This document shows, piece by piece, positions 34,560 through 51,976 of a stretch of 64,000 bases of DNA; positions within the stretch are counted from its first letter, which is position 1, and every line of letters begins with the position of its first letter. Below the pieces are notes generated by a model that worked only from the letters and a program-made list of their open reading frames with translations, ran no database searches and was not told the DNA's origin. Source of the stretch: an uncultured Alteromonas sp. (GTDB lineage: Bacteria; Pseudomonadota; Gammaproteobacteria; Enterobacterales; Alteromonadaceae); NCBI GenBank assembly GCA_963922845.1, contig CAWUJV010000013.1, positions 2,463 through 66,462 of the forward strand, given 5' to 3'. Made by a program: the position numbers and the translations under genes.

Positions 34560-34966
34560 AGTGCTAATCCTCGTGCTATAAATTTACGAACAACAGTGCT
34601 CGCTAAATGAACTTAATGGCGCCAAACGCATCCATACTTTATCGATTGTTGAATGACTTACCACTTTACCGTGCTAAAACGGAAAATAAAGGGACCAATC
34701 GGCAGAAAAATCGCGCTTTATGCGTCTTAACGCTTGGTAAAAAGCAAATAAGTGCTTAGAATTGTCGGCTCGCTCACCTTTAGGGACTATAAATGGGGTG
34801 AGTTTGTTCCTTTGCAACGGTAAAAATAAAATGGATGAGAACCATGCGAGCAAGGAACATCGCAAATAATTTAGCTCGAACAATCAGTGCGTTTTTGCCA
34901 ACGACTCAGATGGTTATTCGAGATACTCGCAAGCACACGAAAATAGTACGGGCCAAACACTCTAGC

Positions 34967-37204: not shown

Positions 37205-37246
37205 GCGGTTCAAAACCGCAACTATAACGAAAACGAAAGAGTGTTT

Positions 37247-38539
37247 ATGAAGTACTTAATCCGTGGTCTCGTGCTCAGTATTGCTATGCTGGCCAATGCA
37301 AACGCCCAACAAACCATGTTGGACAGCGTTGCTGTTATTGTTGATTCAGGCGTTGTGCTTGAAAGTGAAGTACAGAAATTGGTAGATGAAGTTAAGCGTA
37401 ATGCGTTGGCAAATAACCAGTCTCTGCCATCCGATCGCGCGCTCAGAACACAAGCCGTCGAGCGACTGATCATGAAAAGCCTACAGATGCAGCGCGCAGA
37501 GCGTATGGGTATTCAAATCAGTGACCCTCAGCTTGATCAAACCATTGTAAATATTGCACAAAACCAAGGTGCAACGCTTGATATGCTGCGTGCGCAGATA
37601 GCCCAAGAAGGCATTGCATACGAAGACTATCGCGAAACCGTAAGAGAAGAACTCATTATCGGTGAAGTACGCCGCGCTAACGTGAGACGCCGTATCTATA
37701 TTACCGACCAAGAAATTGACTCGCTAATGAGCCTTATCGATCAGCAAGGTGCAGAGCAGGCGGAATATCGTCTCGGTCATATCCTAATTGCTTTCCCGCC
37801 AGATCCGACAGACCAAGATATCGAAGACGCGAGAGAGCGAGCGGGTAAAGTCATCAATTTGCTTGAAGGCGGTTCGGACTTTGCCAAGATTGCCATTGCT
37901 TCATCGTCTGGCTCAGAAGCTTTAGAGGGCGGTGATATGGGCTGGATGAACATCAATGCTATGCCTACATTGTTTGCAGAAGCCGTACAGAACAAAGGTA
38001 AAGAAGAGCTGATTGGTCCAATTCGCAGTGGTGCTGGTTTGCATATTTTGAAAGTACTCGACACCCGAGGGATTGAAATTGTCACGGTTGAGGAAGTCAA
38101 CGCACGTCATATACTGATTCAACCTTCTATCATTCTGAGTGAAGACAAAGCGCAGTCGATGCTGACGGAATTTCGTGAGCAGTTAATTGCCGGTGACGCT
38201 GATTTTGCAGACCTCGCGAAAGAACATTCTGCGGATCCAGGGTCTGCACTACGCGGCGGTGAACTAGGTTGGGCAGACCCCAATATGTATGTACCAGCAT
38301 TTAAAGATGCCCTTGCCGAACTTCAACCTGATGAATTCAGCGGCCCAGTGCGTTCCGTTCACGGTTGGCACCTAATCCAACTGATCGACAGACGAATTGA
38401 CGATGCCACTGAAAAACGTAAAAAAGACAAGGCATACCAACTGCTATTCAATCGTAAATTCAGTGAAGAAACGGAAACTTGGATGCGTGAAATGCGTGAC
38501 CAAGCCCACATCGATGTACTCAACGATGGGAACTCGTAA
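37247..38539 (+). CDS. surA: Periplasmic chaperone / peptidyl-prolyl isomerase SurA
   Basis: Signal peptide plus two parvulin domains (HILI...GGDMGW; HILIQ...GGELGW). The ATG at 37247 is favoured over the GTG at 37241. Confidence 0.9.
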   Translation: MKYLIRGLVLSIAMLANANAQQTMLDSVAVIVDSGVVLESEVQKLVDEVKRNALANNQSLPSDRALRTQAVERLIMKSLQMQRAERMGIQISDPQLDQTIVNIAQNQGATLDMLRAQIAQEGIAYEDYRETVREELIIGEVRRANVRRRIYITDQEIDSLMSLIDQQGAEQAEYRLGHILIAFPPDPTDQDIEDARERAGKVINLLEGGSDFAKIAIASSSGSEALEGGDMGWMNINAMPTLFAEAVQNKGKEELIGPIRSGAGLHILKVLDTRGIEIVTVEEVNARHILIQPSIILSEDKAQSMLTEFREQLIAGDADFADLAKEHSADPGSALRGGELGWADPNMYVPAFKDALAELQPDEFSGPVRSVHGWHLIQLIDRRIDDATEKRKKDKAYQLLFNRKFSEETETWMREMRDQAHIDVLNDGNS

Positions 38540-38548
38540 GGCGAATCT

Positions 38549-39532
38549 ATGGGCATAACACGTATTGCTGTCACGCCAGGGGAACCCGCTGGTATCGGAC
38601 CGGATCTTATCATCGCACTGGCTCAAGAAAGCTGGGATGCGCAACTGGTCGTTTTTGCTGATACTGACATGTTAAACGAGCGAGCCAAATTAATTGGCTT
38701 GCCGTTGACATTAACGCCCTATGATTCATCAATCGACAGAGTCCAACAACCCGGTGAACTGTTTGTTCAGCACATAGATATTGCCAAAACGGCAATAGCA
38801 GGCGAACTGGACAGTGAAAATGGTCACTATGTTGTTGAAACCCTGCGCCAAGCGTGCGAAGCCAACATGCAAGGTGACTTTGCCGCTGTGGTAACAGGCC
38901 CAGTACACAAAGGCATTATCAACAAAGCTGGTGTATCATTCAGTGGTCACACGGAGTATTTTGCGCACCAATCAAACACCGTTGATGTGGTCATGTTATT
39001 GTCTACCGAAGGCCTCAATGTCGCGTTGGCGACCACGCATATTCCGTTGGAGTATGTATCGAAAGCCATTACACGGGACCGACTCCATAAAGTCATTCAC
39101 ATTATTAATACCGACCTAAAATTAAAATTCGGTATCACGCATCCCAAGATTTACGTGTGTGGTCTCAATCCTCACGCAGGGGAAGACGGGCATATTGGTA
39201 AAGAAGAAATCATGGTCATTACGCCCGCGCTTAACGAGTTGCGTGAAGAAGGCTTAGCCATCACAGGACCACTCCCCGCGGATACGATTTTTCAACAAAA
39301 ATACTTAGATGATGCGGATGTTGTGCTAGCGATGTATCACGACCAAGGCCTACCCGTACTCAAATACAAGGGTTTTGGCGAAGCCGTTAACATAACGCTA
39401 GGCCTGCCTTTTATAAGAACGTCTGTTGACCATGGTACTGCGGTTGAACTCGCGGGTACGGGCAAAGCAGATACCGGTAGTTTCCGTAAAGCTTTAGAAA
39501 AAGCCATTACGCTTGCAAGTCATAAACAATGA
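38549..39532 (+). CDS. pdxA: 4-hydroxythreonine-4-phosphate dehydrogenase
   Basis: [15 protein letters not shown]...GLNPHAGE...DHGTA motifs. Confidence 0.95.
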
Positions 39533-40341
39533 ATAAAACACACTTAGGCCACACTGCGCGCAAGCGTTTTGGCCAGAACTTTCTGCACGATGATTACGTC
39601 ATTGACCGCATCGTTTCTGCTATCAATCCTCAAGACGGTGAAAACCTTGTCGAGATTGGTCCAGGTTTGGGGGCAATCACCGAACCTGTGTGCGAAAGAA
39701 TTAATAAACTGACTGTTATCGAGTTAGACAGAGACCTTGCCAAGCGTTTGCGTCATCACCCGTTTCACAGCAGTAAGCTCAATGTGGTAGAGCAAGACGC
39801 GTTAAAAATGGATTTCGTTGAGCTACAAAAGACGTTCGACAACCCTGCTCAACCGTTGAGAGTGTTTGGTAACCTCCCTTATAATATTTCAACGCCCTTG
39901 ATGTTCCATTTGTTTTCACATACGGGACTCATCCAAGATATGCACTTCATGCTACAAAAAGAAGTGGTCAATCGTCTTGCCGCTGGCCCCGGACACAAAA
40001 ACTATGGCCGCCTGTCGGTAATGGCTCAATATTATTGCCAAGTTATTCCCGTATTGGACGTTCCGCCCGGTGCATTCACACCACCACCGAAAGTGGATTC
40101 AGCTGTCGTTAGGCTTGTTCCACATGCCACGCCAACCGTAGACGTCGCGTCAGTTTCTGCACTTGAGACCGTCTGTGCAGCGGCATTTAATCAACGTCGA
40201 AAAACCATCAGAAATAGTCTAAAGTCTGTGTTAGAAGAACAGCAAATCAGTGATTTAGGTATTAATCCTGGCGTTCGAGCAGAGGCATTGTCGCTAGAGG
40301 ATTTTGCTAAATTAGCAAATGCTATCGCCCCTACGGAATGA
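39529..40341 (+). CDS. rsmA: 16S rRNA (A1518/A1519-N6)-dimethyltransferase RsmA/KsgA
   Basis: [11 protein letters not shown]...[10 protein letters not shown]...[10 protein letters not shown]. It overlaps the pdxA stop. Confidence 0.95.
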
Positions 40342-40350
40342 GGTTTAGGT

Positions 40351-40725
40351 ATGACGACACCCACTATGATTATCCATGCTCGGACACGTCACCTACCGGA
40401 ACATTTACCCAGTGACTCAGACAAATATGCATTTGCATACAAGATGTCGATCACCAATCCCAATGCGTTTCCGGTTACGTTGAAGACGCGCTATTGGCTG
40501 ATTACTGATGCCAATGGCAAAACCTCGGAAGTTCAGGGCGATGGGGTCATTGGCGAGCAGCCTGAAATTGCCCCCGGTGACACCTTTCAATACACCAGCG
40601 GTGCGGTGGTCGATACGCCAGTGGCAAGCATGCAAGGCTACTACGAGCTGGAAACAACGGCAGGCGAACGGTTCAAAGCCAATATTGATGTGTTTCGACT
40701 AGCTGTACCGAATATTATTAATTGA
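40351..40725 (+). CDS. apaG: ApaG protein
   Basis: 124 aa with RYWLITDANG...GEQPEIAPGDTFQYTSG. Confidence 0.9.
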   Translation: MTTPTMIIHARTRHLPEHLPSDSDKYAFAYKMSITNPNAFPVTLKTRYWLITDANGKTSEVQGDGVIGEQPEIAPGDTFQYTSGAVVDTPVASMQGYYELETTAGERFKANIDVFRLAVPNIIN

Positions 40726-40729
40726 TTCT

Positions 40730-41557
40730 ATGGCAAGACACTACAGACAAACGCTGGTAGTTGGTGATATTCAAGGATGTTTTAATGGGCTGATGCGCCT
40801 GCTCAAAAAAGCCGAATTTGATCCCAACAAAGACAAACTGTGCGCCGTAGGTGATTTGGTTGCACGTGGAGAGGATTCTCTTGCCACGGTTGAGTTCTTG
40901 ATGTCACTGGGAAAACACTTCACCACCGTACTTGGCAACCACGACCTGCACTTACTCGCCGTGACACAAGGTATCCGCAAGTCAAAACGCTCGGATAACT
41001 TGGATAACCTATTGGCTTCAAAGCGGTTACCGGAAATTGTCGACTGGCTGAGGCAATTTCCATTGGCACAACAACTCAACAACAATACATTACTGGTTCA
41101 CGCAGGGCTCTATCCCAAATGGTCATTTAAAAAAGTCGTTAAGCTAAGCAATGAGGTATCCAGTGAGCTTAAGGGCAAACACTGGCGGCGCCTACTAGAA
41201 AATATGTACGGCAGTGAACCTACGCAATGGCAAGGCAGTCATGAGGGCTATGACCGGTTGCGCTTTATCATCAATGCGTGTACCCGTATGCGTTTTTTGT
41301 ATCACAGTGATTTATCACTTGAGTTTGCGACGAAAACCGCTGTCAATGATGCACCAACTGATCTGACCCCTTGGTTTAGCGTTGAAAACTCGCACATCAA
41401 GTCTGACCACATGGTATTATTTGGCCATTGGGCTGCATTGTCCGGACAAACCAACCAACCACACCTACAAGGGTTGGATACAGGGTATGTTTGGGGGCAG
41501 TCAATGACAGGATATCGTCTAGAAGATGGGAAACGCATTAGCGTCTCACACAACTAA
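40730..41557 (+). CDS. apaH: Bis(5'-nucleosyl)-tetraphosphatase, symmetrical
   Basis: Intact metallophosphatase motifs (VGDIQGC, GDLVARG, GNHDLHLL, GHWA), 275 aa. Confidence 0.95.
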   Translation: MARHYRQTLVVGDIQGCFNGLMRLLKKAEFDPNKDKLCAVGDLVARGEDSLATVEFLMSLGKHFTTVLGNHDLHLLAVTQGIRKSKRSDNLDNLLASKRLPEIVDWLRQFPLAQQLNNNTLLVHAGLYPKWSFKKVVKLSNEVSSELKGKHWRRLLENMYGSEPTQWQGSHEGYDRLRFIINACTRMRFLYHSDLSLEFATKTAVNDAPTDLTPWFSVENSHIKSDHMVLFGHWAALSGQTNQPHLQGLDTGYVWGQSMTGYRLEDGKRISVSHN

Positions 41558-41894
41558 CCCCGTCAACGCGACCATCACATGGAAAATCGGTTCAAGAAAT
41601 TCATTTTTGAGTCGATGTAGTACAACAGAGCGATCTAAAGATAACCAACTGTTTAGGCGTCGTTTTTGTCCTCAATACGTCAAGCAGTGCTGCACATCAA
41701 CTGTATGTGACTGGGTTAACATAGATCAACGAATCGACAGAAAAGACGTCGTCGAGTATTAGATTGCACTAAAGTTTAAATTTTAAAAGGTGCAGTTTGG
41801 TCTTTTTTTTGTCACACTGGTTTACAAAAGATGTTGAAGTTTATTGACTTTAGCGCTTGACTATAACAACAACGCAGATACATCAGGAGTCCCG

Positions 41895-43919
41895 ATGAAT
41901 ATCACTGTTGCGAGACGTATTATTGGTGGATTTCTTTCCATCGTACTATTACTCGTTTTGGTAGGCATTTTCTCGTACACCAACCTGAGCAAAATAGGTA
42001 GTGCGACGGAAGAGGTAAACCAACTTGCCATTCCTACTTTGTCAGGGAGCAGCGCGCTAAAAGCGTCATTTTTGAATATGGGCCGACTGACGTTCGAAGC
42101 CTATATTGAAGAAACACTTGGCGGTTTGGCGACTAAACAAGAAAGTTTCAATTCGAGCAAATCTACCTTCGAATCCGAATATGCATCGTTGGCTAAGACA
42201 GTTGCAGACGAGAAGGCGCTGAAAGGGACGCTCAGCCGAGTAAAAACGTTGTACGATGACTACGCAGGAAACGTAGACAGTTTGTACCAAAGCCGAAAGG
42301 CGGCGATGGATATTCGCAACGCCATTGCGGATACGATTTCAGATGCCGAAGACAACGCGGATGACGCGGCGACTTATGTCTTGGATTTTGCCGACATGGA
42401 CGAAGTGCAACGAAATCGCAAATTGCGCCGCGCGGCTGAACTTGGTGGCAACCTAGAAAGCAGCTTATTGACGCTCCTTACTACGTCCTCTGAATACGTA
42501 AAAACGGAAACCATCGTTCGAGCACAAACGCTGGGCAATGAAGTTGAGCTGGTTGTCAGTCAGGTACAAGGTCATTTAGACGCAATGCTTGAAGCTGCCG
42601 ACGGTGCTGACAGCTCAGGTACGCTTGATGAAATCTCTGATATGGTTGAAGCCGCACTTGATGCCGTGCGTGGCGACAGTGGTATCTTGAAGCTACACGT
42701 TGAGCGCTTGAATCATTTGACTGACTCACAAGCTGCATTGACGCGTTCAGATGAAAACATCAAACAAGCTATAGTCGAACTTGAAGACCTTCTTAACCTT
42801 GCCAACAAAAAAGCCAAGGACATTGAGGTTCAAGTGAATGACAAGGTGACTGGTGGTACGGTACAAGTTATTGTTGCTGTTGTTATCTCAGCAGGTGTTG
42901 CCTTTGGTATTGGTATTTGGATTGTGAATTCTATTACCAAGCCACTCAATCGGGTAAACGAGCTACTTACTATTGCGTCGTCAGGTGATCTAACCCATCG
43001 CCTAGATGATTCCGCCAGTGATGAATTTGGTGAGCTTGCCCGTAACTGTAACAAGCTCATTGCCAGCCTGAAATCACTTATTGCAGGTATCAACGACCGT
43101 GCAGAGCAGTTAGCGGCTGCATCGGAACAAACTTCTGCAGTGACCGCGCAAACCACCAGCTCGATCCAAGAGCAGAAGTCGCAAATTGCCCAAGTGGCAA
43201 CCGCGACGACGGAAATGCACTCAACGTCGCAGCTTGTTAGTCAAAATGCGGAAGACACGCTGGGGCAAATCCGCCATGCAGATAGTGAAGCGGAAAAAGT
43301 CCGTAAGATTTCTGTCGAGAACAAAACAACCATCGAAGTACTGGCTAAAGATGTTGAAGAAGCGGCAAACGTTATCAACAAGCTTCACCAAGACAGTGCC
43401 AGTATTGGTGGCATCCTTGACGTTATCCGTGGTGTCGCAGACCAAACCAATCTGTTGGCATTGAACGCGGCGATTGAAGCGGCCCGAGCAGGCGAACAAG
43501 GTCGAGGCTTTGCGGTAGTTGCTGATGAAGTTAGAACGCTTGCAAGCCGGACTCAAGAATCAACGCAAGAAATTAACTCTATGATCGAGGTGTTACAAGC
43601 TGGCGCAGAAAAAGCGGTAGCGGTGATGAACCAAGGTAAAGAGCAAACCGGCGTTTGCGTACAGCAAACAGAGAATGCAACTAAAGCGCTGGACCTCATC
43701 TCTGATGCGGTTCACAAGGCATTTGATGTCAGTACTCAAATCGAACAGTCGGCTCGCGAGCAAAACGTTGTATCTCAAGAAATCAGTGAAAAGCTTGAAG
43801 GCATTGTTAACATTGCTGAAGAGACGACGATTGGTGCACAACAAACGTCAGATTCTAGCCACGAAGTCGCTAGACTCGCCGAAGAGTTACAACAGTCAAT
43901 CCGACAGTTCAAAGTGTAA
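41895..43919 (+). CDS. Methyl-accepting chemotaxis protein with a large periplasmic helical sensor domain
   Basis: TM1, a ~300-aa periplasmic region, TM2, HAMP, and the signalling hairpin ([35 protein letters not shown]). The ATG at 41895 is preceded by GGAG. Confidence 0.9.
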
Positions 43920-43933
43920 CTTACAGCATGCGT

Positions 43934-43959
43934 AAAAAAGGGGCGTATGCCCCTTTTTT
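43934..43959 (+). terminator. Rho-independent terminator after the MCP gene
   Basis: GGGGC-GTAT-GCCCC followed by TTTTTT. Confidence 0.8.
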
Positions 43960-44093
43960 ATTGCTCGCACACACCCTGTTACAACAAATGTCATATCAAC
44001 AGGGTAAACTTTAGAATAAAATTCCACCGTCGAGATTGCATTTTTAGCGATCAGTACCGAAAATTACGCTATCCCTTGTGGTTTGAGAGGCTA

Positions 44094-45614
44094 ATGAAAG
44101 TCGTACGTATTGTTTTTCGTTTTTTATTCCTGTCATGCGCTTTGTTTATTAGTGCGCTCAGTCATGGGCAACAACAATCGGCAACACTGGTTTTTACTGC
44201 CGACTTACCCGTCATTAATAGTTCTGAACACGGCGACTATGCGCAGTTAGCGCGCTTAATTGAAACCATGCGGCAAGAGGACCCGTCGACGTTCTTCTTG
44301 TTCGGTGGTGGTAGCCTAGCCCCCAGTCATCTGTCCTCGTTTGACCGAGGCGCTCACATTATCGATATCCTCAACAGTATCGAACCCGATGCGATGTCTG
44401 TGACCAAACGTGAATTCAGTTATTTTGAAGATGAGTTTTCATTGCGCGCTTATGAAGCGGCTTTTCCAATGGTGTTAAGCAATGCGTTCGATCCCTTCAC
44501 ACAAGGGAATGTCGATGGCGCTAATGACAGTGTACTGATCGAAAAAGGAGGGATCACTATCGGCATTTTGTCGGTCATTCACGAATCAGTGATTGAAGAA
44601 TATTTGCTACAGCGATTGCAAATCACCGACCCTTACCGAGCGATCAAAACCGAAGCTGCAAAATTGCGAGAGCAAGGTGCACAGCTGGTTGTACTAATGT
44701 ATTCCAGTTCTTATCCCTTCATAGATTCGCTGTTGTCAGATAGCACCATCAATGTCGCTCTGAGAACCGACCCTCATTACGAGCTGTCAGCAGCAAAAGA
44801 GTCAACAGCACACCCGAATCGTATCTTGGTCAACCAAGCCGGCGTTGCCGCTATTCTCGATTTAACCTGGCCCACTGACAAACCGAACGAATTGTCGATT
44901 TCATGGCGCAACCAAGTATTGGAAACCGTCCCCAAAGACCCGGTGATCAATCATCAAATCCGCAGCTACACCCAACGCATCGAACGACTGCTGAATGAAG
45001 AGCTAGCGACGACCTCACAAAGCTTCGACACGCTGCGCCCTTCTGTGAGAACGCAAGAGAGTGCATTTGGTAATTTAGTTACAGATGCGTTAAGAGAAGC
45101 CGCGCAAACGGATATCGCCATCATCAACGGTGGCGCTATAAGAGGTGAAAAACAATATCAATCTGATGCAGTTATCACCCGTCGAGACATTGCTGAGGAG
45201 TTGCCGTTTCGCAGTCGTATTATGGTGGTAGAAGTCACGGGCACGCAATTATTACTCGCACTGGAAAATGGTCTAAGCCAAATTGAAGGCGTGAAAGGAC
45301 GTTTTTTACAAATGTCAGGCGTAGAGGTTGTTTTCGATGGTTCGAAGCCGATTGGAAGTCGATTACTGTCAGCCACAGTTGCAGGGAAACGAGTCAAGCC
45401 AGATGAAAAGTATACGGTGGCGATGTCAGATTATCTTGCAAAAGGCGGGGATGGCTTTGCTATGTTTAGCAATGCAAAACGCCTCGGTTTTAGTCAGCAG
45501 GTTACGCCGCTTATTTCTGATATTGTGATCAGTTATTTCAGGAAAAAACAGTCATTAACGGCTATGATTGAAGGACGCATAAGAAGAACTGACACCCCTG
45601 GGGCGGGTCAATGA
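44094..45614 (+). CDS. Periplasmic 5'-nucleotidase/metallophosphoesterase homolog with degenerate catalytic motifs (probable pseudoenzyme)
   Basis: Signal peptide MKVVRIVFRFLFLSCALFISALSHG (ATG 44094, GAGAGG upstream). The C-terminal 5'-nucleotidase substrate-binding domain is well conserved (FGNLVTDALR, INGGAIRG, YLAKGGDGF), but the N-terminal metal-ligand motifs are replaced (see finding). Confidence 0.8.
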   Translation: MKVVRIVFRFLFLSCALFISALSHGQQQSATLVFTADLPVINSSEHGDYAQLARLIETMRQEDPSTFFLFGGGSLAPSHLSSFDRGAHIIDILNSIEPDAMSVTKREFSYFEDEFSLRAYEAAFPMVLSNAFDPFTQGNVDGANDSVLIEKGGITIGILSVIHESVIEEYLLQRLQITDPYRAIKTEAAKLREQGAQLVVLMYSSSYPFIDSLLSDSTINVALRTDPHYELSAAKESTAHPNRILVNQAGVAAILDLTWPTDKPNELSISWRNQVLETVPKDPVINHQIRSYTQRIERLLNEELATTSQSFDTLRPSVRTQESAFGNLVTDALREAAQTDIAIINGGAIRGEKQYQSDAVITRRDIAEELPFRSRIMVVEVTGTQLLLALENGLSQIEGVKGRFLQMSGVEVVFDGSKPIGSRLLSATVAGKRVKPDEKYTVAMSDYLAKGGDGFAMFSNAKRLGFSQQVTPLISDIVISYFRKKQSLTAMIEGRIRRTDTPGAGQ

Positions 45615-47311
45615 CCGACGATAATAAGAATAACAAACAGGTTCGAAACAAAACCCGCCGATACTCGTTGACCAAAATCATCAACAGCGGCCTTTTTGTC
45701 ATCGTAAGCTTGGTGATTATCCTCGCGCTTTCCACTTATTATCGACTCAGTGAATTCAACGATACGCTAAATGACGTATCCGAAAAATCCCTCACTACCG
45801 TCATCAGCTCTGGCGAAATATTCATTCAAGTGAACAATCTTGCCCGTGTCAGCGAGCGCCTTGTCAATGCGAATAGTGATCCACACCGGCGTATAAGCTA
45901 TGGCCAAATCAACGATCAGCTCGCCGTGCTGACCGGCATTGCTGAGCGGCAAAAAGAAAATGCGTATATGCTGCTGCAACTGTATACCATTTCCAAAGAA
46001 CTAAGTGATTTGAATCAGCTAGTCATTCGCAAGCTGACTATCCACGATAAAATGTTAGAGCAACAAACGCGCATGTACGACATTTACGAGGCGTTAATGC
46101 GAACGCCCGATGACAGCGCCAGTGCCAACCCTCGTTGGAAACAAAACATAGCTGAGATCGTCACCCATACCGGTGAAATCCTGATTATTGACAGGCTTAA
46201 TGTTGTACGAGAAAAAAAGCAAAGCATGACAGACCTGTTTGACGGATTGAAGCAAGACATCAAAGACGGTAATTACGTGCTTCCAGCAGAATCGTCACAA
46301 CTCATAAGCCAACTCGAACACGCGATCACCGACAACATAGAAGGTATCTTCTCGCTGCGCCAAGAGCAATTGAAAGTAATGGGACGCTCCAGAGGCAGAG
46401 CGAACATGGTGAACAACCTGATTCTAGACTATGCTCGGCTGACTGAGTTCGAATCGTATCAGCTCAACTCCCGCATTTTAGAAGACGCGCGAAACGCGTC
46501 GGGCACCATCAGCGCGCAAATCCAAAACATCAATTTAGTCTTCTTGTTTATTGTGCTCGTCATTGTTGGTTTTAGTGCTTTCGTTCATCGATTAGTTGTG
46601 GCTCGTCTATTACGTCTTCGTACTCAAATTCAGCAACGCCTAGAGGGCGTAGAACAAGACATCGCATTATTTGGCAATGACGAGATATCTGATCTTGCCG
46701 AAACCTTTGATTCTTTTGCTAAAACCATTGAGAATCAAAAACAAACGCTATCAGAGATGAGTTTGGTTGACGCATTGACCAGCGTCGCCAATCGACGGGC
46801 GCTTGATGAGCGTTTTGAACAGGAGATTGGCATCGCCATTCGACGCAAGTGGCCTATTACAGTGATGCTGCTTGATATCGACTTTTTCAAACAGTACAAC
46901 GACAACTATGGTCACGGCAAAGGTGATGATTGCTTGCGCCAAGTCGCCCATATCCTTTTGACTTGTTTGCCGCGTAAAACGGATTTCGTCGCACGCTACG
47001 GCGGTGAAGAGTTTGCTATCATCCTGCCAGACACACACGTGACGGGTGCGATAAAAGTTGCCGAGCACATCATCGATAGCATGGCACGGGCCCGTATCGA
47101 ACATGAGTACAGTCGAGCGGCTGATTTTGTTACCCTCAGCCTTGGCATAGCGTCAACAGAAGATATCAGCGCTGATGAAGGTGAACTGCTATTAGAACAA
47201 GCTGATAAAGCGTTGTATAAGGCAAAACGAAAAGGTCGTAATCGATACGAGTATTTTGATTCGGGTATATTAGATAGCCCAGTCGTTGTTGATTTGAAAC
47301 CAGTAAAATAA
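45611..47311 (+). CDS. Membrane diguanylate cyclase (periplasmic sensor - HAMP - GGDEF)
   Basis: Two TM segments flank a ~270-aa periplasmic domain, followed by a HAMP-like linker and a GGDEF domain with an active site RYGGEEF and an I-site RKTD. Its start overlaps the previous stop (ATGA). Confidence 0.9.
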   Translation: MTDDNKNNKQVRNKTRRYSLTKIINSGLFVIVSLVIILALSTYYRLSEFNDTLNDVSEKSLTTVISSGEIFIQVNNLARVSERLVNANSDPHRRISYGQINDQLAVLTGIAERQKENAYMLLQLYTISKELSDLNQLVIRKLTIHDKMLEQQTRMYDIYEALMRTPDDSASANPRWKQNIAEIVTHTGEILIIDRLNVVREKKQSMTDLFDGLKQDIKDGNYVLPAESSQLISQLEHAITDNIEGIFSLRQEQLKVMGRSRGRANMVNNLILDYARLTEFESYQLNSRILEDARNASGTISAQIQNINLVFLFIVLVIVGFSAFVHRLVVARLLRLRTQIQQRLEGVEQDIALFGNDEISDLAETFDSFAKTIENQKQTLSEMSLVDALTSVANRRALDERFEQEIGIAIRRKWPITVMLLDIDFFKQYNDNYGHGKGDDCLRQVAHILLTCLPRKTDFVARYGGEEFAIILPDTHVTGAIKVAEHIIDSMARARIEHEYSRAADFVTLSLGIASTEDISADEGELLLEQADKALYKAKRKGRNRYEYFDSGILDSPVVVDLKPVK

Positions 47312-47336
47312 GCCCCCTACAAGCTTGCAGAGGGCT
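47311..47336. terminator. Imperfect palindromic stem-loop between convergent genes (candidate bidirectional terminator)
   Basis: AGCCCCCTACAAG/CTTGCAGAGGGCT: 13-bp arms with 2 mismatches and weak T-runs. Confidence 0.45.
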
Positions 47337-47343
47337 TTAAAGT

Positions 47344-48693
47344 CTATTCAAACAATTCTGCGTGTAATTGCTTCACAATGTTCGAACTGTCTGCTTCATT
47401 GACCAAGAAGGACAAGTTGTGAGGGTTAGCGCCAAAACATATCATTCTCAAGTTGTAGTCAGCGACAGCTGCTAATATCTTGCTCGATACGCCGACTTTT
47501 GAGTGCATGTCATTACCCACCACTGTCACGAGATCAAAGCCCTGCTCTACCTTCACGTCACAGATTGTTTCTAACTCTTCAATCGTTTGCTTATTCAATC
47601 GCTCGGCGACAGAATTGGCTGGATTGTCGAGTGTAAACGAAACCGATATTTCTGATGTTGTGACCAAATCAACACTCAGTTTATGCTTGGCAATAATCGC
47701 AAAGACTTGTTGCAAAAAGCCTTGCGCATACATCATCTTCGGCGTTTTAACCGTTACCATGACTTGCTCTTTACGGCGCGTAATAGCGCGGTATGGCGGC
47801 TCATGTTCACAGTCTTTGACGATCCAAGTACCACCCTTTTCAGGCTCTTTGCTTGACCCGACAAACACCTTAATATTCTTACGAAGCGCCGGTTCCATTG
47901 TTGCAGGATGCAGAACTTTAGCGCCGAAAGTTGCCATCTCAGCCGCCTCTTCAAAGCTGAGTTCGGGTAGAGGACGCGCGGCCTCTGTTATGCGAGGGTC
48001 AGTGGTGTAGACGCCAATTACATCGGTCCAGATTTCACACGCTTTTGCGTCCAATGCTTCAGCAAGGAGTGCAGCTGTGAAATCCGATCCTCCGCGGCCT
48101 AACGTGGTGGTTTTCCCTTGTTCGGTTGCCCCCACAAACCCCTGAGTAATGACGACAGAATCTTTGATCTCAGGGCGCAGTAAAGACCCAGCAAGAGACG
48201 CAATGTCCTCAATTTGAGGCGTGGCCGCACCGTGCACGTCATCGGTTCTCAATACTTTGCGCACGTCAAAGTTAATCGTGCTCACGCCCTGCTCTGCCAA
48301 CACTTCACTAAACAACAATGATGACATACGCTCACCCATTGAGAGCAATTGATCTTTTAAATCAACGCGATGCAATATCTCTTCGTGAAACGCCAGAGAT
48401 TTCAGCTCTTCGAGTAAGTCGTTTAATTTTGTCTCAACCGAGGCGTCGGCATTTAGTTTATTGAGAATCGCAAACTCTATCTTAACGATAGCTTGATACT
48501 TGTCTTCAATTTGCTCCTGAGTCATGGCGTTGTGCGCCAAATCGACTAATAAATTGGTCACGCCAGCAGAAGCACTGACGACGACGATACGCGTATTGTG
48601 ATTATTGGCTACAATCTGCGCGCAGTTTTGCATTGTTTCGTAGGTCGCCACACTGGTGCCGCCAAACTTTGCAATGGTTAAATCAGTTGTCAC
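47344..48693 (-). CDS. lysC: Aspartate kinase (lysine-sensitive type, LysC-like)
   Basis: KFGGTSV...VVVSA kinase N-terminus and C-terminal ACT pair, 449 aa as in E. coli LysC. Confidence 0.9.
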   Translation of the reverse strand: MTTDLTIAKFGGTSVATYETMQNCAQIVANNHNTRIVVVSASAGVTNLLVDLAHNAMTQEQIEDKYQAIVKIEFAILNKLNADASVETKLNDLLEELKSLAFHEEILHRVDLKDQLLSMGERMSSLLFSEVLAEQGVSTINFDVRKVLRTDDVHGAATPQIEDIASLAGSLLRPEIKDSVVITQGFVGATEQGKTTTLGRGGSDFTAALLAEALDAKACEIWTDVIGVYTTDPRITEAARPLPELSFEEAAEMATFGAKVLHPATMEPALRKNIKVFVGSSKEPEKGGTWIVKDCEHEPPYRAITRRKEQVMVTVKTPKMMYAQGFLQQVFAIIAKHKLSVDLVTTSEISVSFTLDNPANSVAERLNKQTIEELETICDVKVEQGFDLVTVVGNDMHSKVGVSSKILAAVADYNLRMICFGANPHNLSFLVNEADSSNIVKQLHAELFE

Positions 48694-48749
48694 ATTTATC
48701 TCCGGTTCCTCAACACTGATGAGGTAAAACGAGCAAAGCCTAAACTTTA

Positions 48750-49196
48750 CTAAGGATTCAAAGTTATCTTATGGCCGACTTTAATATTGTTGTCGGCGAA
48801 CCACCCTTGGTTCATCTCTAGCGCAAACTGAACCTGTTTGGATGCTGCCACTGACGTGAGGTCATGAGGCTGCAACGGTTTGATATCTGTTATCACGCCA
48901 TTTCTGTCGATAAAGGCCACATCAAGGGGAATAAACGTATTTTTCATCCACATGCTGGCGCGTTTTGGCTCATCAAAACGAAAGAGCATACCGCAATCTT
49001 CACACATGGCTTTTCGATACATCAATCCACGAGCTCGCTGTTCAAACGTTTGAGCGTACTCAACGTTCAGCTTGTTATTGTTTATCTTTATTGTTATTTC
49101 ATCAAAATCGATATCTTCTTGTGCATTCACGCCGATGAAAGACATTGAAGCGACCGCAAGAAATGCCAAACCAAATAAATTACGCCATGTTTTCAT
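48750..49196 (-). CDS. DUF192-domain secreted protein
   Basis: Signal peptide followed by RARGLMYR...MLF...MWMKNTFIPLDVAFID, typical of DUF192 (recollection). Confidence 0.7.
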   Translation of the reverse strand: MKTWRNLFGLAFLAVASMSFIGVNAQEDIDFDEITIKINNNKLNVEYAQTFEQRARGLMYRKAMCEDCGMLFRFDEPKRASMWMKNTFIPLDVAFIDRNGVITDIKPLQPHDLTSVAASKQVQFALEMNQGWFADNNIKVGHKITLNP

Positions 49197-49302
49197 TACT
49201 TATTCCTTCATTCATTGGGTTGGATAATGCAGCGGTAGGGCATGCACCAGCAGAAATATCAGCCGCTAATAATGCCATTAACCGCTAGACGCAATCAAAC
49301 AT

Positions 49303-49332
49303 TAAAAAAGCCGGGGGAACAAGTCACCCGGC
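49303..49332 (-). terminator. Rho-independent terminator after acnB
   Basis: GCCGGG...CCCGGC stem with an A-run upstream on the + strand (a T-run on the minus strand). Confidence 0.7.
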
Positions 49333-49363
49333 TTCGTCATTAAAATGCTACAGCAAGATAACG

Positions 49364-51976
49364 TCAGGCGACGCTCAACGTTGGAATAATCTTGGCTTTG
49401 GCTTCCTCTTCCGCCTGTTTAAATGACGGCATTTTGTCAAAGTTCAGATACTGGAATACCTCACTCGACATAGCGTCAATTTTGCTCGCATACTCCATGT
49501 ATTCCTCTGCCGTCGGAATGCGTCCCACTATCGCTCCAACCGCAGCGAGTTCTGCTGAGGTAAGGTAGACGTTCGCGCCGTCACCTAATCGATTGGGAAA
49601 GTTTCGAGTGGAGGTCGACAACACTGTTGTACCGGCCTCTACCCGTGCTTGGTTACCCATGCAAAGTGAGCAACCGGGCATCTCTGTGCGGACTCCGACT
49701 CGCCCGTAGATATTGTAATACCCCTCTTCCATCAACTGGGCTTTATCCATTTTAGTTGGAGGCGAGACCCAAAGGCGTGTTGGAATCGTTTTATTGTATT
49801 GTTCCAGTAATTTACCCGCTGCGCGAAAGTGACCGATATTTGTCATGCACGATCCGATGAACACTTCGTCAACATTATCGCCAGCGACATCGGACAACGT
49901 CTTCGCGTCATCGGGATCATTGGGACAACACACAATAGGCTCTTTGATATCGGCTAAGTCAATTTCGATGATTTCCTTGTACTGGGCATCATCATCCGCC
50001 ACCATTAACTCTGGATTGGCCAGCCACGCTTCCATCTTTTGTGCCCGGCGTTCAAGGGTGCGGGGATCACCGTAGCCTTCATTGATCATCCAGCGCAACA
50101 TAGTGATGTTAGAGCGCAGGTATTCTGATACTGACGCCTCTGACAATTTGATAGTACAACCGGCGGCAGAACGCTCTGCTGACGCATCTGATAGTTCAAA
50201 TGCCTGCTCTACGGTCAATGATTCCAAACCTTCGATTTCGAGAATACGGCCAGAAAATGCATTCACCTTGCCTTTTTTCTTGACAGTCAGTAACCCTTGT
50301 TTAATGGCATATAAAGGAATCGCGTGTACTAAATCGCGTAGCGTAATTCCCGGCTGCATTTCGCCTTTAAATCTCACCAAAATGGACTCTGGCATGTCTA
50401 ACGGCATGACTCCCGTTGCAGCGGCAAAAGCAACAAGTCCTGATCCCGCGGGAAACGAAATCCCCAAAGGGAAACGAGTGTGTGAGTCACCTCCTGTGCC
50501 TACAGTGTCAGGCAGCAACATTCGATTTAACCATGAATGGATGATGCCGTCGCCAGGTCGCAGGCTCACGCCACCGCGATTCATCATAAAATCAGGTAAC
50601 GTGTGTTGGGTTTCAATATCTACCGGCTTGGGATAGGCCGCCGTATGACAAAAAGACTGCATGGTGAGGTCTGCACTAAATCCGAGACAGGCTAAATCTT
50701 TAAGTTCATCGCGCGTCATCGGACCCGTTGTATCTTGAGAGCCGACAGTGGTCATTTTAGGCTCACAGTATGTGCCAGGACGAATCCCTTCCACACCACA
50801 CGCTTTACCGACCATTTTTTGGGCCAAAGTGAAACCTTTGCCCGTATCTTGCGGTTGCACAGGTTTTCGGAATAAATCCGATGGCGCCAAATCTAATGCT
50901 TCACGGGCGCGTTCAGTCAAACCTCGACCAATGATCAAGTTGATACGACCACCCGCTCGGACCTCATCCAATATCACATCAGATTTATAATCGTATTGGG
51001 CTAATACTTCCCCCGTTGCTGCTAGTGTTATCTTGCCTTCTAGCGGGTAGATATCGATTACATCACCCATATTCATTTTTTCGACATCGGCTTCAAACAC
51101 TAGGGCACCGGCGTCTTCCATCGTGTTAAAAAATATCGGTGCCACTTTCGACCCAATACAGACGCCACCACCGCGCTTGTTAGGTACACCTGGTAAATCC
51201 TCGCCAAAGAACCACAGTACGGAGTTCGTCGCTGATTTACGTGAGGACCCCGTTCCGACGACATCACCAACAAAGGCGACGGGGTAACCTTTAGATTTGA
51301 TCGCATCTATTTGATCAAGAGGTCCTGTGACGCCGTGCTCGCTGGGTGAGAGCCCATCGCGTGTCATTTTATACATGGCCTTAGCATGAAGAGGAATGTC
51401 GGGCCGTGACCAAGCATCAGGTGCCGGTGACAAATCATCCGTATTGGTTTCACCAGTCACCTTAAACACGCTATAAGTCATTTTTTCTTCTAGTTCTGGG
51501 CGAGACGTAAACCACTCCCCTTCAGCCCATGACTCCATCACATCCGCAGCAAAGGGATTACCTGCTTTGCGCTTTTCGTCAACATCGTGAAACGCGTCAA
51601 ACATCAATAGCGTATGCTTAAGCTCTTCTGCAGCGAGTTCTGCCAAGTCGGGATCTTCTAGCAACTTAACTAAGGTTTCTATGTTGTAGCCTCCGTGCAT
51701 ATTGCCCAATAGTTGCACCGCCGCGTCGCGGCTGATGAGCTCGCAGGTTTCCTGACCTTTTGCGATGGCACTTAAAAATCCAGCTTTGACATAGGCGGCT
51801 TCGTCCACACCCGGAGGTACTCTATCCGCTAACAAGTCCAACAAGAAAACCTCTTCTCCCGCTGGTGGGGCTTTGATCAACTCAATCAAACCCGCTACTT
51901 GCTCCGCAGTCAGTGGTTTTGGGGGAATTCCTTCAAGTGCACGCTCTTCAACGTGTTTGCGATACTCTTCTAGCAC
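49364..51976 (-). CDS. acnB: Aconitate hydratase B / 2-methylisocitrate dehydratase
   Basis: 870 aa with the N-terminus [22 protein letters not shown], characteristic of AcnB. Confidence 0.95.

What the first reader, a model, noticed from the sequence alone, without database searches (positions are those of the whole stretch)
44094..47311. Catalytically degenerate periplasmic 5'-nucleotidase homolog translationally coupled to a membrane diguanylate cyclase: a candidate extracellular-nucleotide to c-di-GMP sensor pair
The 506-aa secreted protein is clearly a UshA/5'-nucleotidase-family member. Its C-terminal substrate-binding domain keeps the hallmark stretches FGNLVTDALR, INGGAIRG, LPF and YLAKGGDGF. 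The N-terminal calcineurin-like metallophosphoesterase motifs that ligate the two metals are nearly all replaced. Motif I (ND-H-G) reads TADLPV, so the His is lost. Motif II (GGD) reads FGGGS, so the Asp is lost. Motif III (GNHEF) reads VTKREF, so the Asn and His are lost. The downstream sH-G and GGH-type histidine motifs read LMYSSS and LRTDPH. ApaH in the same window shows the intact versions (GDIQGC, GDLVARG, GNHD), so the degeneracy is not a reading artefact. The stop of this gene overlaps the start of the next gene (ATGA at 45611-45614). That gene encodes a two-TM protein with a ~270-aa periplasmic domain, a HAMP linker and an active-looking GGDEF domain (GGEEF plus an RKTD I-site). A nucleotide-binding but non-hydrolytic pseudoenzyme made in fixed ratio with a cyclase that exposes a periplasmic domain resembles periplasmic-binding-protein/cyclase pairs such as NspS-MbaA. 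It suggests sensing of extracellular nucleotides or nucleosides (eATP, eDNA breakdown products, or cyclic or linear dinucleotides) to set c-di-GMP levels. An MCP gene lies immediately upstream but has its own terminator. I am not aware of a described system of this composition.
Basis: partly seen in the sequence, partly recalled or inferred. Interest (0 to 1): 0.7.

Follow-up and report, generated by a model that had tools for sequence, protein, structure and literature searches.

The report
Dead nucleotidase partnered with c-di-GMP cyclase
A secreted protein that looks like a nucleotide-cleaving enzyme but has lost its catalytic metal site is always encoded just ahead of a membrane sensor that makes (or leads to) the biofilm signal c-di-GMP, so it is probably an undescribed way for bacteria to sense nucleotides outside the cell.

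Summary
Window 44094-45614 encodes a 506-aa secreted protein with the two-domain 5'-nucleotidase fold. Every dimetal and catalytic residue of the N-domain is replaced, and every nucleotide-contacting residue of the C-domain is kept. Its stop overlaps (ATGA) the start of a 566-aa TM-sensor-TM-HAMP-GGDEF cyclase with intact GGEEF and RKTD I-site.

New evidence:
- The pair is a conserved two-gene module: 79 of 80 genomic loci from about a dozen genera, the exception being a contig end.
- No family member of 87 keeps the catalytic His.
- The cyclase's periplasmic domain is an all-helical, distantly TorS-like sensor.
- The same sensor domain also occurs on TorS-type hybrid histidine kinases. In 7 of 7 such loci examined, a degenerate nucleotidase gene lies immediately upstream, and in 4 a REC-GGDEF regulator follows.

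So the pseudoenzyme travels with the sensor domain, not with the output. Best reading: a periplasmic, non-hydrolytic nucleotide-binding co-receptor with TorT/TorS, NspS/MbaA or PruR/DcpA logic that sets c-di-GMP. Ligand, physical contact and signal direction are untested. No description was found in the literature searched. I rate it a new variant of a known kind.

The parts
43934..43959 (+). Terminator hairpin of the upstream MCP gene (A6-GGGGC-GTAT-GCCCC-T6). It separates the MCP from the module.
   Evidence: Read directly. The MCP is adjacent only in four close relatives.
43988..44017 (+). Candidate sigma-70-type promoter of the two-gene operon (ATGTCA-18-TAGAAT).
   Evidence: Consensus scan (9 of 12 matches). 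The number of such sites in the region is not above the shuffled expectation, so this is weak.
44094..45614 (+). Gene for the secreted, catalytically degenerate 5'-nucleotidase homolog (506 aa).
44094..44165 (+). Sec-type signal peptide (MKVVRIVFRFLFLSCALFISALSH).
   Evidence: Sequence. The model shows an N-terminal helix at residues 2-22. 97 of 113 full-length homologs have an N-terminal hydrophobic segment. Export is inferred; no dedicated predictor was run.
44172..44918 (+). Degenerate metallophosphoesterase-like N-domain. FGGGS at 44301-44315 replaces GGD. KREF at 44406-44417 replaces NHEF. The family-specific invariant segment D84-x3-H88-x2-D91 lies at 44343-44366.
45012..45470 (+). 5_nucleotid_C domain with the nucleotide pocket retained: Arg319 (45048-45050), GGAIRG (45129-45146), LPFRS (45201-45215) and DYLAKGGDGF (45429-45458).
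   Evidence: Pfam hit. Residue table. Coordinates.
45611..45614 (+). ATGA overlap of stop and start (translational coupling).
   Evidence: By the first-ATG rule, 55 of 79 orthologous junctions overlap, and 27 of these overlap by 4 nt.
45611..47311 (+). Gene for the membrane diguanylate cyclase (566 aa).
45746..46522 (+). Periplasmic all-helical sensor domain, distantly TorS-like, between TM1 (45677-45745) and TM2 (46523-46591).
   Evidence: AlphaFold2 secondary structure. Pfam TorS_sensor_domain hits in orthologs. hhalign against E. coli TorS gives probability 85.6%. The profile search found 192 relatives.
46580..46732 (+). HAMP linker.
   Evidence: Pfam (22.9 bits, just under the gathering score). 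44 of 54 orthologs hit HAMP at E up to 1.
46763..47245 (+). GGDEF catalytic domain with the I-site RKTD (46973-46984) and the GGEEF motif (47000-47014).
47310..47337 (.). Hairpin terminator shared with the convergent aspartokinase gene. It ends the operon.

Best explanation
The two genes form one sensory module.

1. The first gene product is exported to the periplasm.
2. It has the 5'-nucleotidase two-domain fold but no dimetal centre and no catalytic His-Asp dyad, so it cannot hydrolyse by the family's mechanism.
3. Its C-domain keeps the two aromatic residues that sandwich the base, the Asp that holds the ribose and the Arg residues that hold the phosphate. It therefore most likely still binds a nucleotide-like ligand.
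4. I infer that ligand binding drives or stabilises the hinge closure typical of this fold, with Lys105 and Arg106 standing where Asn116 and His117 would be.
5. The ligand-dependent shape is read by the all-helical, TorS-like periplasmic domain of the cyclase dimer.
6. The signal passes through TM2 and HAMP to the GGDEF domain and changes c-di-GMP synthesis. The RKTD I-site provides product inhibition.
7. In other lineages the same sensor domain sits on a TorS-type hybrid histidine kinase, often followed by a REC-GGDEF regulator. Output is again c-di-GMP.

Shown: gene order and overlap, loss of the catalytic residues, retention of the pocket residues, co-conservation with the sensor domain across two output types, and the intact GGDEF motifs.

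Inferred: export, ligand binding, hinge closure as the signal, physical contact with the sensor domain, and the sign of regulation.
For: Fold and domains.
- Pfam detects only the C-domain.
- The AlphaFold2 model (pLDDT 87.2) matches whole two-domain 5'-nucleotidases at E about 1e-39: 3ivd, 2z1a, CD73 and UshA.

Residue table over 81 family members against UshA.
- His43 becomes Met or Leu.
- Asp84 is Gly in 55, and Asn, Ala, Asp, Arg or Ser in the rest.
- Asn116 is Lys in 72.
- His117 is Arg in 76 and is never His.
- Asp120 is Ser in 74.
- Arg379, Arg410 and Asp504 are kept in 81 of 81.
- Phe429 and Phe498 are Phe or Tyr in 81 of 81.
- The same pattern holds in three histidine-kinase partners that are 33-36% identical. 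In the alignment that adds all six kinase partners (87 sequences), the equivalents of Arg379, Arg410 and Asp504 are identical in 87 of 87.

Gene pairing.
- 79 of 80 loci have the cyclase immediately downstream. Junctions mostly overlap or have gaps of at most 63 nt.
- Only these two genes are conserved in the neighbourhood.

Sensor domain.
- One ortholog passes the Pfam gathering score for TorS_sensor_domain, and 12 of 54 hit it at E up to 1.
- hhalign against E. coli TorS gives probability 85.6% and E 5.6e-6.
- Of the best 150 of 192 relatives, 94 carry GGDEF and 38 are histidine kinases. Ten long hits were scanned: nine are histidine kinases, most with receiver and Hpt domains like TorS.
- 7 of 7 kinase loci have a gene with only 5_nucleotid_C immediately upstream, and 4 are followed by REC-GGDEF.

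Precedents for periplasmic partners that control sensor enzymes: TorT-TorS, NspS-MbaA and ScrB-ScrC (PMC8050422), and PruR-DcpA (PMC11194511).
Against: - There is no direct evidence of ligand binding, of a complex, or of any effect on c-di-GMP.
- The link to TorS covers only the first half of the sensor domain and is weak when the cyclase family is used alone.
- The structure search with the full cyclase model returned only GGDEF matches.
- The N-domain is the most conserved part of the protein and carries new invariant acidic and His residues. These could form a new site, catalytic or metal-binding, rather than an interface.
- I saw no obvious covariation between partner motifs and sensor motifs.
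- The identity of the ligand is open.
Confidence: 0.6

Rival explanations
1. The pseudo-nucleotidase is a ligand-independent periplasmic regulator of the cyclase, comparable to YfiR acting on YfiN. It would bind and repress or activate the sensor domain and be released by envelope, redox or folding stress rather than by a small molecule.
For: Strict pairing with the sensor domain fits any binding partner. The N-domain, not the nucleotide pocket, is the most conserved region. That would suit a protein-protein interface.
Against: The equivalents of Arg379, Arg410 and Asp504 are identical in 87 of 87 sequences, and both stacking aromatics are Phe or Tyr in 81 of 81, at 33-55% overall identity. 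This is hard to explain unless the pocket is still used.
Confidence: 0.15
2. The protein is still an enzyme with a rebuilt active site. The invariant Asp84, His88, Asp91, Glu112-Asp113-Glu114, Arg118 and Glu121 would form a new metal or acid-base centre. It would make or destroy a periplasmic signal that the cyclase sensor domain reads itself.
For: There is a cluster of new invariant charged residues near the former active-site region. PA2072 shows that a periplasmic sensor can couple nucleotide hydrolysis to c-di-GMP control (PMC12625894).
Against: All canonical ligands and the catalytic His are missing, and PF00149 is not detected. No related chemistry is known for this fold without the dimetal centre. 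Fixed-ratio co-translation suits a stoichiometric partner better than a catalyst.
Confidence: 0.12
3. It is a co-receptor as in the best explanation, but the ligand is not a nucleotide. It could be another phosphorylated or anionic compound, as SoxB of the same superfamily acts on a protein-bound thiosulfonate.
For: NCBIfam lists SoxB among the weak full-length matches (E 1.5e-16). Family-specific invariants sit in the C-domain: Arg373 next to the stacking Phe, plus Glu322, Asn327, Asp331 and Glu391. These suggest a specificity different from UshA and CD73.
Against: The base-stacking pair and the ribose-binding Asp are the features specific to nucleoside recognition, and they are kept. The best sequence and structure matches are true nucleotidases with bound nucleosides.
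Confidence: 0.1
4. The adjacency has no functional meaning: a decaying nucleotidase gene happens to lie next to a cyclase.
For: None beyond the loss of the catalytic motifs.
Against: The family is under strong purifying selection, with dozens of invariant residues. It is paired in 79 of 80 and 7 of 7 loci across Gammaproteobacteria, with kinase-variant members named from Alphaproteobacteria and Desulfobulbaceae and Campylobacterota-labelled bins among the cyclase pairs. Junctions are conserved as overlaps.
Confidence: 0.02

Closest known systems
TorT-TorS (periplasmic TMAO-binding protein plus hybrid histidine kinase)
   Same: A periplasmic ligand-binding protein is encoded next to a membrane sensor whose periplasmic domain is an elongated all-helical bundle. 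The sensor domain here is distantly homologous to the TorS sensor domain. Relatives carry the TorS-type HisKA-HATPase-REC-Hpt output.
   Different: The partner has a 5'-nucleotidase fold, not a Peripla_BP_1 binding protein. In the window the output is a GGDEF domain. In the kinase variants the downstream regulator is REC-GGDEF, not TorR. Homology to TorS covers only the first half of the domain.
NspS-MbaA and ScrB-ScrC (solute-binding protein plus c-di-GMP enzyme)
   Same: A secreted binding protein is encoded upstream of, and acts on, the periplasmic domain of a c-di-GMP-metabolising membrane protein (PMC8050422).
   Different: Those partners are classical solute-binding proteins and the sensors are dCache-like. 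Here the partner is a pseudoenzyme and the sensor is a helical bundle.
PruR-DcpA (pterin-binding periplasmic protein controlling a cyclase-phosphodiesterase)
   Same: An enzyme-derived fold that no longer catalyses binds a small metabolite in the periplasm and controls a c-di-GMP enzyme through its periplasmic domain. The two are encoded as an operon conserved across Proteobacteria (PMC11194511).
   Different: The fold differs (molybdopterin-binding-like versus 5'-nucleotidase). The ligand class and the sensor domain also differ.
UshA, CD73 and E. coli c4898 (PDB 3ivd): periplasmic or ecto 5'-nucleotidases
   Same: Same two-domain fold, C-domain nucleotide pocket and export.
   Different: The dimetal ligands and the catalytic His-Asp dyad are all absent. 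Many new invariant residues appear in the N-domain. The gene is obligatorily paired with a sensor gene, whereas E. coli ushA has unrelated neighbours.
PA2072 of Pseudomonas aeruginosa (CHASE4 eATP receptor)
   Same: An extracellular nucleotide is sensed in the periplasm and changes intracellular c-di-GMP (PMC12625894).
   Different: It is a single protein with a CHASE4 domain that binds and hydrolyses ATP and a phosphodiesterase output. No separate partner and no nucleotidase fold are involved. No CHASE4 hit is found here.

Membership tests
5'-nucleotidase / UshA family | Two-domain fold: metallophosphoesterase-like N-domain plus 5_nucleotid_C domain | tested here: met
   The AlphaFold2 model (pLDDT 87.2) matches 3ivd, 2z1a, CD73 and UshA over about 520-545 aligned columns at E about 1e-34 to 1e-39.
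5'-nucleotidase / UshA family | C-terminal substrate-binding domain (PF02872) with the phosphate-binding Arg residues, the stacking aromatic pair and the ribose-binding Asp | tested here: met
   PF02872 at E 3.7e-41. Arg319, Arg350, Phe372, Tyr447 and Asp453 align to UshA Arg379, Arg410, Phe429, Phe498 and Asp504 and are conserved in 81 of 81 family members (Phe/Tyr for the two aromatics). The Arg379, Arg410 and Asp504 equivalents are identical in 87 of 87.
5'-nucleotidase / UshA family | Dimetal-centre ligands (UshA Asp41, His43, Asp84, Asn116, His217, His252, Gln254) and the PF00149 signature | tested here: not met
   No PF00149 hit. His43 becomes Leu/Met, Asp84 becomes Gly, Asn116 becomes Lys. 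His217, His252 and Gln254 have no equivalents.
5'-nucleotidase / UshA family | Catalytic His117-Asp120 dyad | tested here: not met
   His117 becomes Arg (76 of 81, never His). Asp120 becomes Ser (74 of 81).
5'-nucleotidase / UshA family | Nucleotide hydrolysis | not testable with these tools
   Needs an enzyme assay.
Periplasmic partner plus transmembrane c-di-GMP enzyme (NspS-MbaA, PruR-DcpA type) | Partner gene adjacent to, co-oriented with and co-conserved with the enzyme gene | tested here: met
   79 of 80 loci, mostly with overlapping junctions. Only these two genes are conserved in the neighbourhood.
Periplasmic partner plus transmembrane c-di-GMP enzyme (NspS-MbaA, PruR-DcpA type) | Partner is exported to the periplasm | tested here: inconclusive
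   The N-terminus looks like a signal peptide. No dedicated predictor or experiment was used.
Periplasmic partner plus transmembrane c-di-GMP enzyme (NspS-MbaA, PruR-DcpA type) | Partner binds the periplasmic domain of the enzyme and changes its activity with ligand | not testable with these tools
   Indirect support only: the partner follows the sensor domain across two output classes.
Periplasmic partner plus transmembrane c-di-GMP enzyme (NspS-MbaA, PruR-DcpA type) | Partner has a classical solute-binding-protein fold (this applies to NspS and ScrB, not to PruR) | tested here: not met
   The fold is that of a 5'-nucleotidase.
TorT-TorS system | TorS-type periplasmic sensor domain (PF21689) | tested here: inconclusive
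   The window protein has no hit. Ortholog P0232 scores 29.6 bits against a cut-off of 27, over profile positions 1-109 of 275. 12 of 54 orthologs hit at E up to 1. hhalign gives probability 85.6% and E 5.6e-6 over the first half. Searches with the cyclase family alone are weaker.
TorT-TorS system | Partner is TorT, a Peripla_BP_1 binding protein | tested here: not met
   The partner has only PF02872.
TorT-TorS system | Hybrid histidine-kinase output (HisKA-HATPase-REC-Hpt) | tested here: not met
   The window protein ends in GGDEF. Relatives of the sensor domain do have this output.
Active GGDEF diguanylate cyclase | GG(D/E)EF active-site motif and conserved catalytic residues of the GGDEF domain | tested here: met
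   GGEEF at 464-468. Asp422, Asp424, Asn430 and Asp439 are invariant in 54 orthologs. PF00990 at E 3.8e-49. The domain matches WspR and PleD.
Active GGDEF diguanylate cyclase | RxxD I-site five residues before the GGDEF motif | tested here: met
   RKTD at 455-458. Arg455 and Asp458 are conserved in at least 90% of orthologs.
PA2072-type eATP receptor | Periplasmic CHASE4 domain | tested here: not met
   No CHASE4 hit in the cyclase or its orthologs.

The most novel reading that the evidence does not exclude
The 5'-nucleotidase fold has been repurposed as a ligand-binding co-receptor. It has lost its metal centre, and its substrate-induced hinge closure now serves the role that Venus-flytrap closure plays in solute-binding proteins. 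This would define a widespread, previously unrecognised class of periplasmic pseudoenzyme receptors for extracellular nucleotides. Candidate ligands are eATP or AMP, breakdown products of eDNA or eRNA, and linear or cyclic dinucleotides. The receptors dock on TorS-like sensor domains and feed c-di-GMP either directly (GGDEF fusion) or through a hybrid kinase and a REC-GGDEF regulator. They occur in Gamma- and Alphaproteobacteria and Desulfobulbaceae, and in bins labelled Campylobacterota.
Probability: 0.45. Interest if true: 0.85.

Novelty: new variant of a known kind. Interest (0 to 1): 0.72.

Why it matters
How bacteria perceive nucleotides outside the cell is largely open. The one mechanistically described bacterial eATP receptor found in my searches dates from 2025 and uses a different domain (PMC12625894). 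This module offers a second, phylogenetically broad candidate route that links external nucleotides to c-di-GMP, and so to biofilm and motility decisions.

It comes with a clear, testable set of residues and two natural output variants. It would also be a clean bacterial example of a pseudoenzyme turned receptor. Finally, it would correct database names: many members are labelled 'bifunctional metallophosphatase/5'-nucleotidase', which the residue evidence contradicts.

Tried and rejected
- Structure search with the full-length cyclase model returned only GGDEF-domain matches.
- A PDB profile search with the periplasmic-domain alignment found only coiled-coil noise.
- hhalign of the cyclase-only profiles against a single E. 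coli TorS sequence was weak: probability 30% and 1%. Only the broader profile of 129 sequences reached 85.6%.
- The first word-indexed homolog search with the sensor region found only 4 proteins.
It was replaced by local HMMs.
- Looking by eye for covariation between partner motifs and sensor motifs showed nothing convincing.
- I considered the upstream MCP as a third component and rejected it. It has its own terminator and is adjacent only in four close relatives.
- I considered 43947 as the start codon and rejected it.
- Six literature searches found no description of a nucleotidase-like partner of a cyclase or kinase.
- Neither of two broad reviews mentions one.

Full report
**The observation**

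The window carries two same-strand ORFs: 44094..45614 (506 aa) and 45611..47311 (566 aa). The stop of the first overlaps the start of the second as ATGA at 45611-45614, preceded by a G-rich Shine-Dalgarno-like stretch. A longer ORF from 43947 is not the real start. It runs through the hairpin-T6 terminator of the upstream MCP gene at 43934-43959, and its extension is absent from all homologs. A hairpin at 47310-47337, shared with the convergent aspartokinase gene, ends the unit. The unit is therefore a two-gene operon.

**The first protein is a 5'-nucleotidase fold without the catalytic machinery**

- Pfam detects only the C-terminal domain (PF02872, residues 307-459, E 3.7e-41) and no PF00149.
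- NCBIfam gives only sub-threshold matches to UshA, CpdB-like, Nt5e and SoxB models.
- The AlphaFold2 model is confident (mean pLDDT 87.2). Over its whole length it matches E. coli c4898 (3ivd), the Thermus 5'-nucleotidase (2z1a), human CD73 and E. coli UshA at E about 1e-34 to 1e-39.

I verified the UshA residue numbering on the K-12 sequence. I then aligned UshA with the window protein and 80 orthologs. PDB sequence and profile alignments to 3ivd and CD73 give the same correspondences for the GD and GNHEF motifs.

| UshA residue | Role | In the family (81 sequences) |
|---|---|---|
| Asp41 | metal ligand | variable (D/E/N/G/S) |
| His43 | metal ligand | Met or Leu |
| Asp84 | bridging metal ligand | Gly in 55; Asn, Ala, Asp, Arg or Ser in the rest |
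| Asn116 | metal ligand | Lys in 72 |
| His117 | catalytic | Arg in 76, never His |
| Asp120 | catalytic dyad | Ser in 74 |
| His217, His252, Gln254 | metal ligands | no equivalents |
| Arg375 | phosphate binding | Arg in 64 |
| Arg379, Arg410 | phosphate binding | Arg in 81 of 81 |
| Phe429, Phe498 | base stacking | Phe or Tyr in 81 of 81 |
| Asp504 | ribose binding | Asp in 81 of 81 |

The roles of these UshA residues are taken from my knowledge of the published UshA structures, not from a tool result.

No family member combines even the minimal ligand set. The N-terminus is a plausible Sec signal peptide; export is inferred.

**The N-domain is not decaying**

It is the most conserved part of the protein. 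Across 87 sequences that include six distant kinase-associated members, the following stay at least 93% identical, most of them fully invariant:

- N-domain: Pro77, Ser78, Asp84, Gly86, His88, Asp91, Asn94, Pro98, Glu112, Asp113, Glu114, Arg118, Glu121, Phe124, Pro125 and Asn130.
- C-domain, family-specific: Glu322, Asn327, Asp331, Asn345, Arg373, Glu391 and Arg495.

This is strong purifying selection for a function other than dimetal hydrolysis.

**The second protein is an intact-looking cyclase with a helical periplasmic sensor**

- Pfam and NCBIfam find GGDEF (E 3.8e-49) and HAMP.
- RKTD at 455-458 and GGEEF at 464-468 are in place. The residues expected for catalysis are invariant in 54 orthologs.
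- The AlphaFold2 model (pLDDT 85.7) shows TM1, an all-helical periplasmic region of about 260 residues, one long helix through TM2 and HAMP, and a GGDEF domain that matches WspR and PleD.

The periplasmic region has no Pfam hit in the window protein. However:

- 12 of 54 orthologs hit TorS_sensor_domain (PF21689) at E up to 1.
- One ortholog passes the gathering score: 29.6 against 27 bits, in register directly after TM1.
- A 129-sequence profile of the domain aligns to E. coli TorS residues 5-159 with probability 85.6% and E 5.6e-6.
- Narrower profiles gave weaker results.

I take the domain to be a distant relative of the TorS sensor domain, with moderate confidence.

**Co-conservation**

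A scan of one genome per species found 128 relatives of the first protein, of which 80 loci were fetched. They come from Alteromonas, Aestuariibacter, Paraglaciecola, Glaciecola, Psychrosphaera, Rheinheimera, Kangiella, Psychromonas, Marinomonas, Nitrincola, Psychrobium, Agaribacter and others.

- In 79 of 80 loci a cyclase of the same architecture follows immediately on the same strand. The exception is a contig that ends about 490 nt after the stop.
- By a first-ATG rule, 55 of 79 junctions overlap (27 of them by 4 nt) and 20 have gaps of at most 63 nt. The other four are start-codon-rule or frameshift outliers.
- Clustering all neighbouring ORFs shows that only these two genes are conserved (81 of 81 and 80 of 81). 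The flanks vary.
- The MCP upstream in the window is adjacent only in four close Alteromonas relatives. It is not part of the module.

**The key new result: the partner follows the sensor domain, not the output**

An exhaustive profile search with the periplasmic domain alone found 192 cluster representatives. Of the best 150, 94 carry GGDEF and 38 are histidine kinases. Of ten long hits scanned, nine are histidine kinases, most with receiver and Hpt domains as in TorS (HisKA-HATPase-REC-Hpt); the tenth carries PAS domains.

I looked up the genomic context of seven of these kinases.

- In all seven, the gene immediately upstream on the same strand has 5_nucleotid_C as its only Pfam domain on record. 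It is 496-503 aa wherever it is complete; in L085 and L086 it is cut by the contig end.
- The junctions overlap or leave gaps of at most about 40 nt.
- In four of the seven, a REC-GGDEF response regulator follows.
- Three of these partners were aligned to UshA. They are 33-36% identical to the window protein, also lack His43 and His117, and also keep the C-domain pocket.
- Named members of the kinase variant come from a Desulfobulbaceae MAG and from Novispirillum itersonii.

So the degenerate nucleotidase travels with the periplasmic sensor domain whatever the cytoplasmic output. Both architectures lead to c-di-GMP synthesis. This is what a direct periplasmic partnership predicts. It is hard to reconcile with chance adjacency or with a metabolic role.

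**Most likely mechanism**

| Status | Steps |
|---|---|
| Shown | operon structure and overlap; loss of the catalytic residues; retention of the nucleotide pocket; pairing with the sensor domain; intact cyclase motifs |
| Inferred | export; binding of a nucleotide-like ligand on the C-domain; ligand-linked hinge closure; reading of that state by the TorS-like sensor dimer; transmission through TM2 and HAMP to GGDEF; product inhibition at the I-site |

- The large rotation between open and closed forms of UshA is established knowledge of the family and is recalled here, not tested. In the closed state Lys105 and Arg106 would sit where Asn116 and His117 contact the phosphate.
- The model's best TM-scores are to the disulfide-trapped UshA entry 1oi8 and the 'intermediate form' entry 4wwl (0.61 and 0.60). 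The open-form entry 1hp1 and 1ush score 0.54. This is a weak hint only.
- The sign of regulation and the ligand are unknown.

**Rival explanations**

- A ligand-independent regulator of the YfiR kind. The invariance of the pocket argues against it.
- A rebuilt enzyme that uses the new invariant Asp/His/Glu cluster. This cannot be excluded by sequence.
- A non-nucleotide ligand.
- Meaningless adjacency. This is refuted.

**Comparison with what is known**

The logic matches TorT-TorS, NspS-MbaA and ScrB-ScrC (review PMC8050422). It especially matches PruR-DcpA, where an enzyme-derived, non-catalytic periplasmic fold binds a pterin and controls a cyclase-phosphodiesterase (PMC11194511).

It is not a member of any of these families. 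The partner is neither a solute-binding protein nor a PruR-like fold, and in the window the output is not a kinase.

Periplasmic sensing of extracellular ATP coupled to c-di-GMP has been shown for PA2072 through a CHASE4 domain (PMC12625894). The concept therefore has a precedent, but the components differ.

A 2022 census of c-di-GMP sensory inputs lists only intracellular nucleotide sensing and does not mention a nucleotidase (PMC8846402). Six full-text searches found no description of this pairing. The library searched lacks most subscription journals, so absence there is not proof.

**Verdict**

I rate it a new variant of a known kind (periplasmic partner plus membrane signalling enzyme) with an unprecedented partner fold. 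It is broadly distributed and comes in two output architectures. Interest 0.72.

Noticed in passing
L083:4456-10327, L084:3467-8123, L085:179-4863, L087:3507-9457, L088:2429-6727, L089:2503-7881, L090:1433-6348: A second architecture of the module: degenerate nucleotidase gene, then a TorS-type hybrid histidine kinase with the same periplasmic sensor domain, then (in 4 of 7) a REC-GGDEF response regulator. Named members of this variant come from a Desulfobulbaceae MAG and from Novispirillum itersonii.
   Followed up: yes
window 44343-44366 and 44427-44456 (aa 84-91 and 112-121 of the first protein): A family-specific cluster of invariant charged residues in the N-domain: Asp84-x3-His88-x2-Asp91, Glu112-Asp113-Glu114, Arg118 and Glu121. 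It is absent from UshA. It could be a docking surface or a new metal or ligand site.
   Followed up: partly
window 45201-45215 (LPFRS): An invariant Arg373 directly follows the base-stacking Phe372, where UshA and CD73 have Gly (PFG). It may redefine ligand specificity.
   Followed up: no
window 41844-43919: The upstream MCP has a large helical periplasmic domain of about 300 aa (partial 4HB_MCP_1 hit), its own terminator, and orthologs up to 83% identical over the parts held in the loci, in four Alteromonas loci (L006, L009, L010, L011). It is not conserved with the module elsewhere.
   Followed up: partly
L012:9260-9793 (- strand) and 24 other loci: A secreted DUF3016 protein of about 180 aa is encoded convergently just downstream of the cyclase in 25 of 81 loci. 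I did not resolve whether this is lineage synteny or a functional link.
   Followed up: partly
L068:8541-9070 and L078:8552-9065: In two Alteromonas genomes the GGDEF region of the paired cyclase is split between two reading frames. This could be a frameshifted pseudogene or an assembly error.
   Followed up: no
database names of homologs P0003, P0022, P0041, P0048, P0057 and others: Many family members are annotated as 'bifunctional metallophosphatase/5'-nucleotidase' although none has the metal ligands. This is probably a systematic misannotation.
   Followed up: partly
window 34835-41557 and 47344-51976: The module, with the MCP, sits between the housekeeping run lptD, three ORFs in the positions of surA, pdxA and rsmA, apaG and apaH, and the convergent aspartokinase, DUF192 and aconitase-like genes. 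lptD, the aspartokinase and DUF192 were confirmed with Pfam; the other names are read from the translations or from gene order. In 29 other loci the module lies next to three ORFs of about 500, 155 and 950 aa that look like pepA, holC and valS by size and sequence, so it has moved between housekeeping neighbourhoods.
   Followed up: partly
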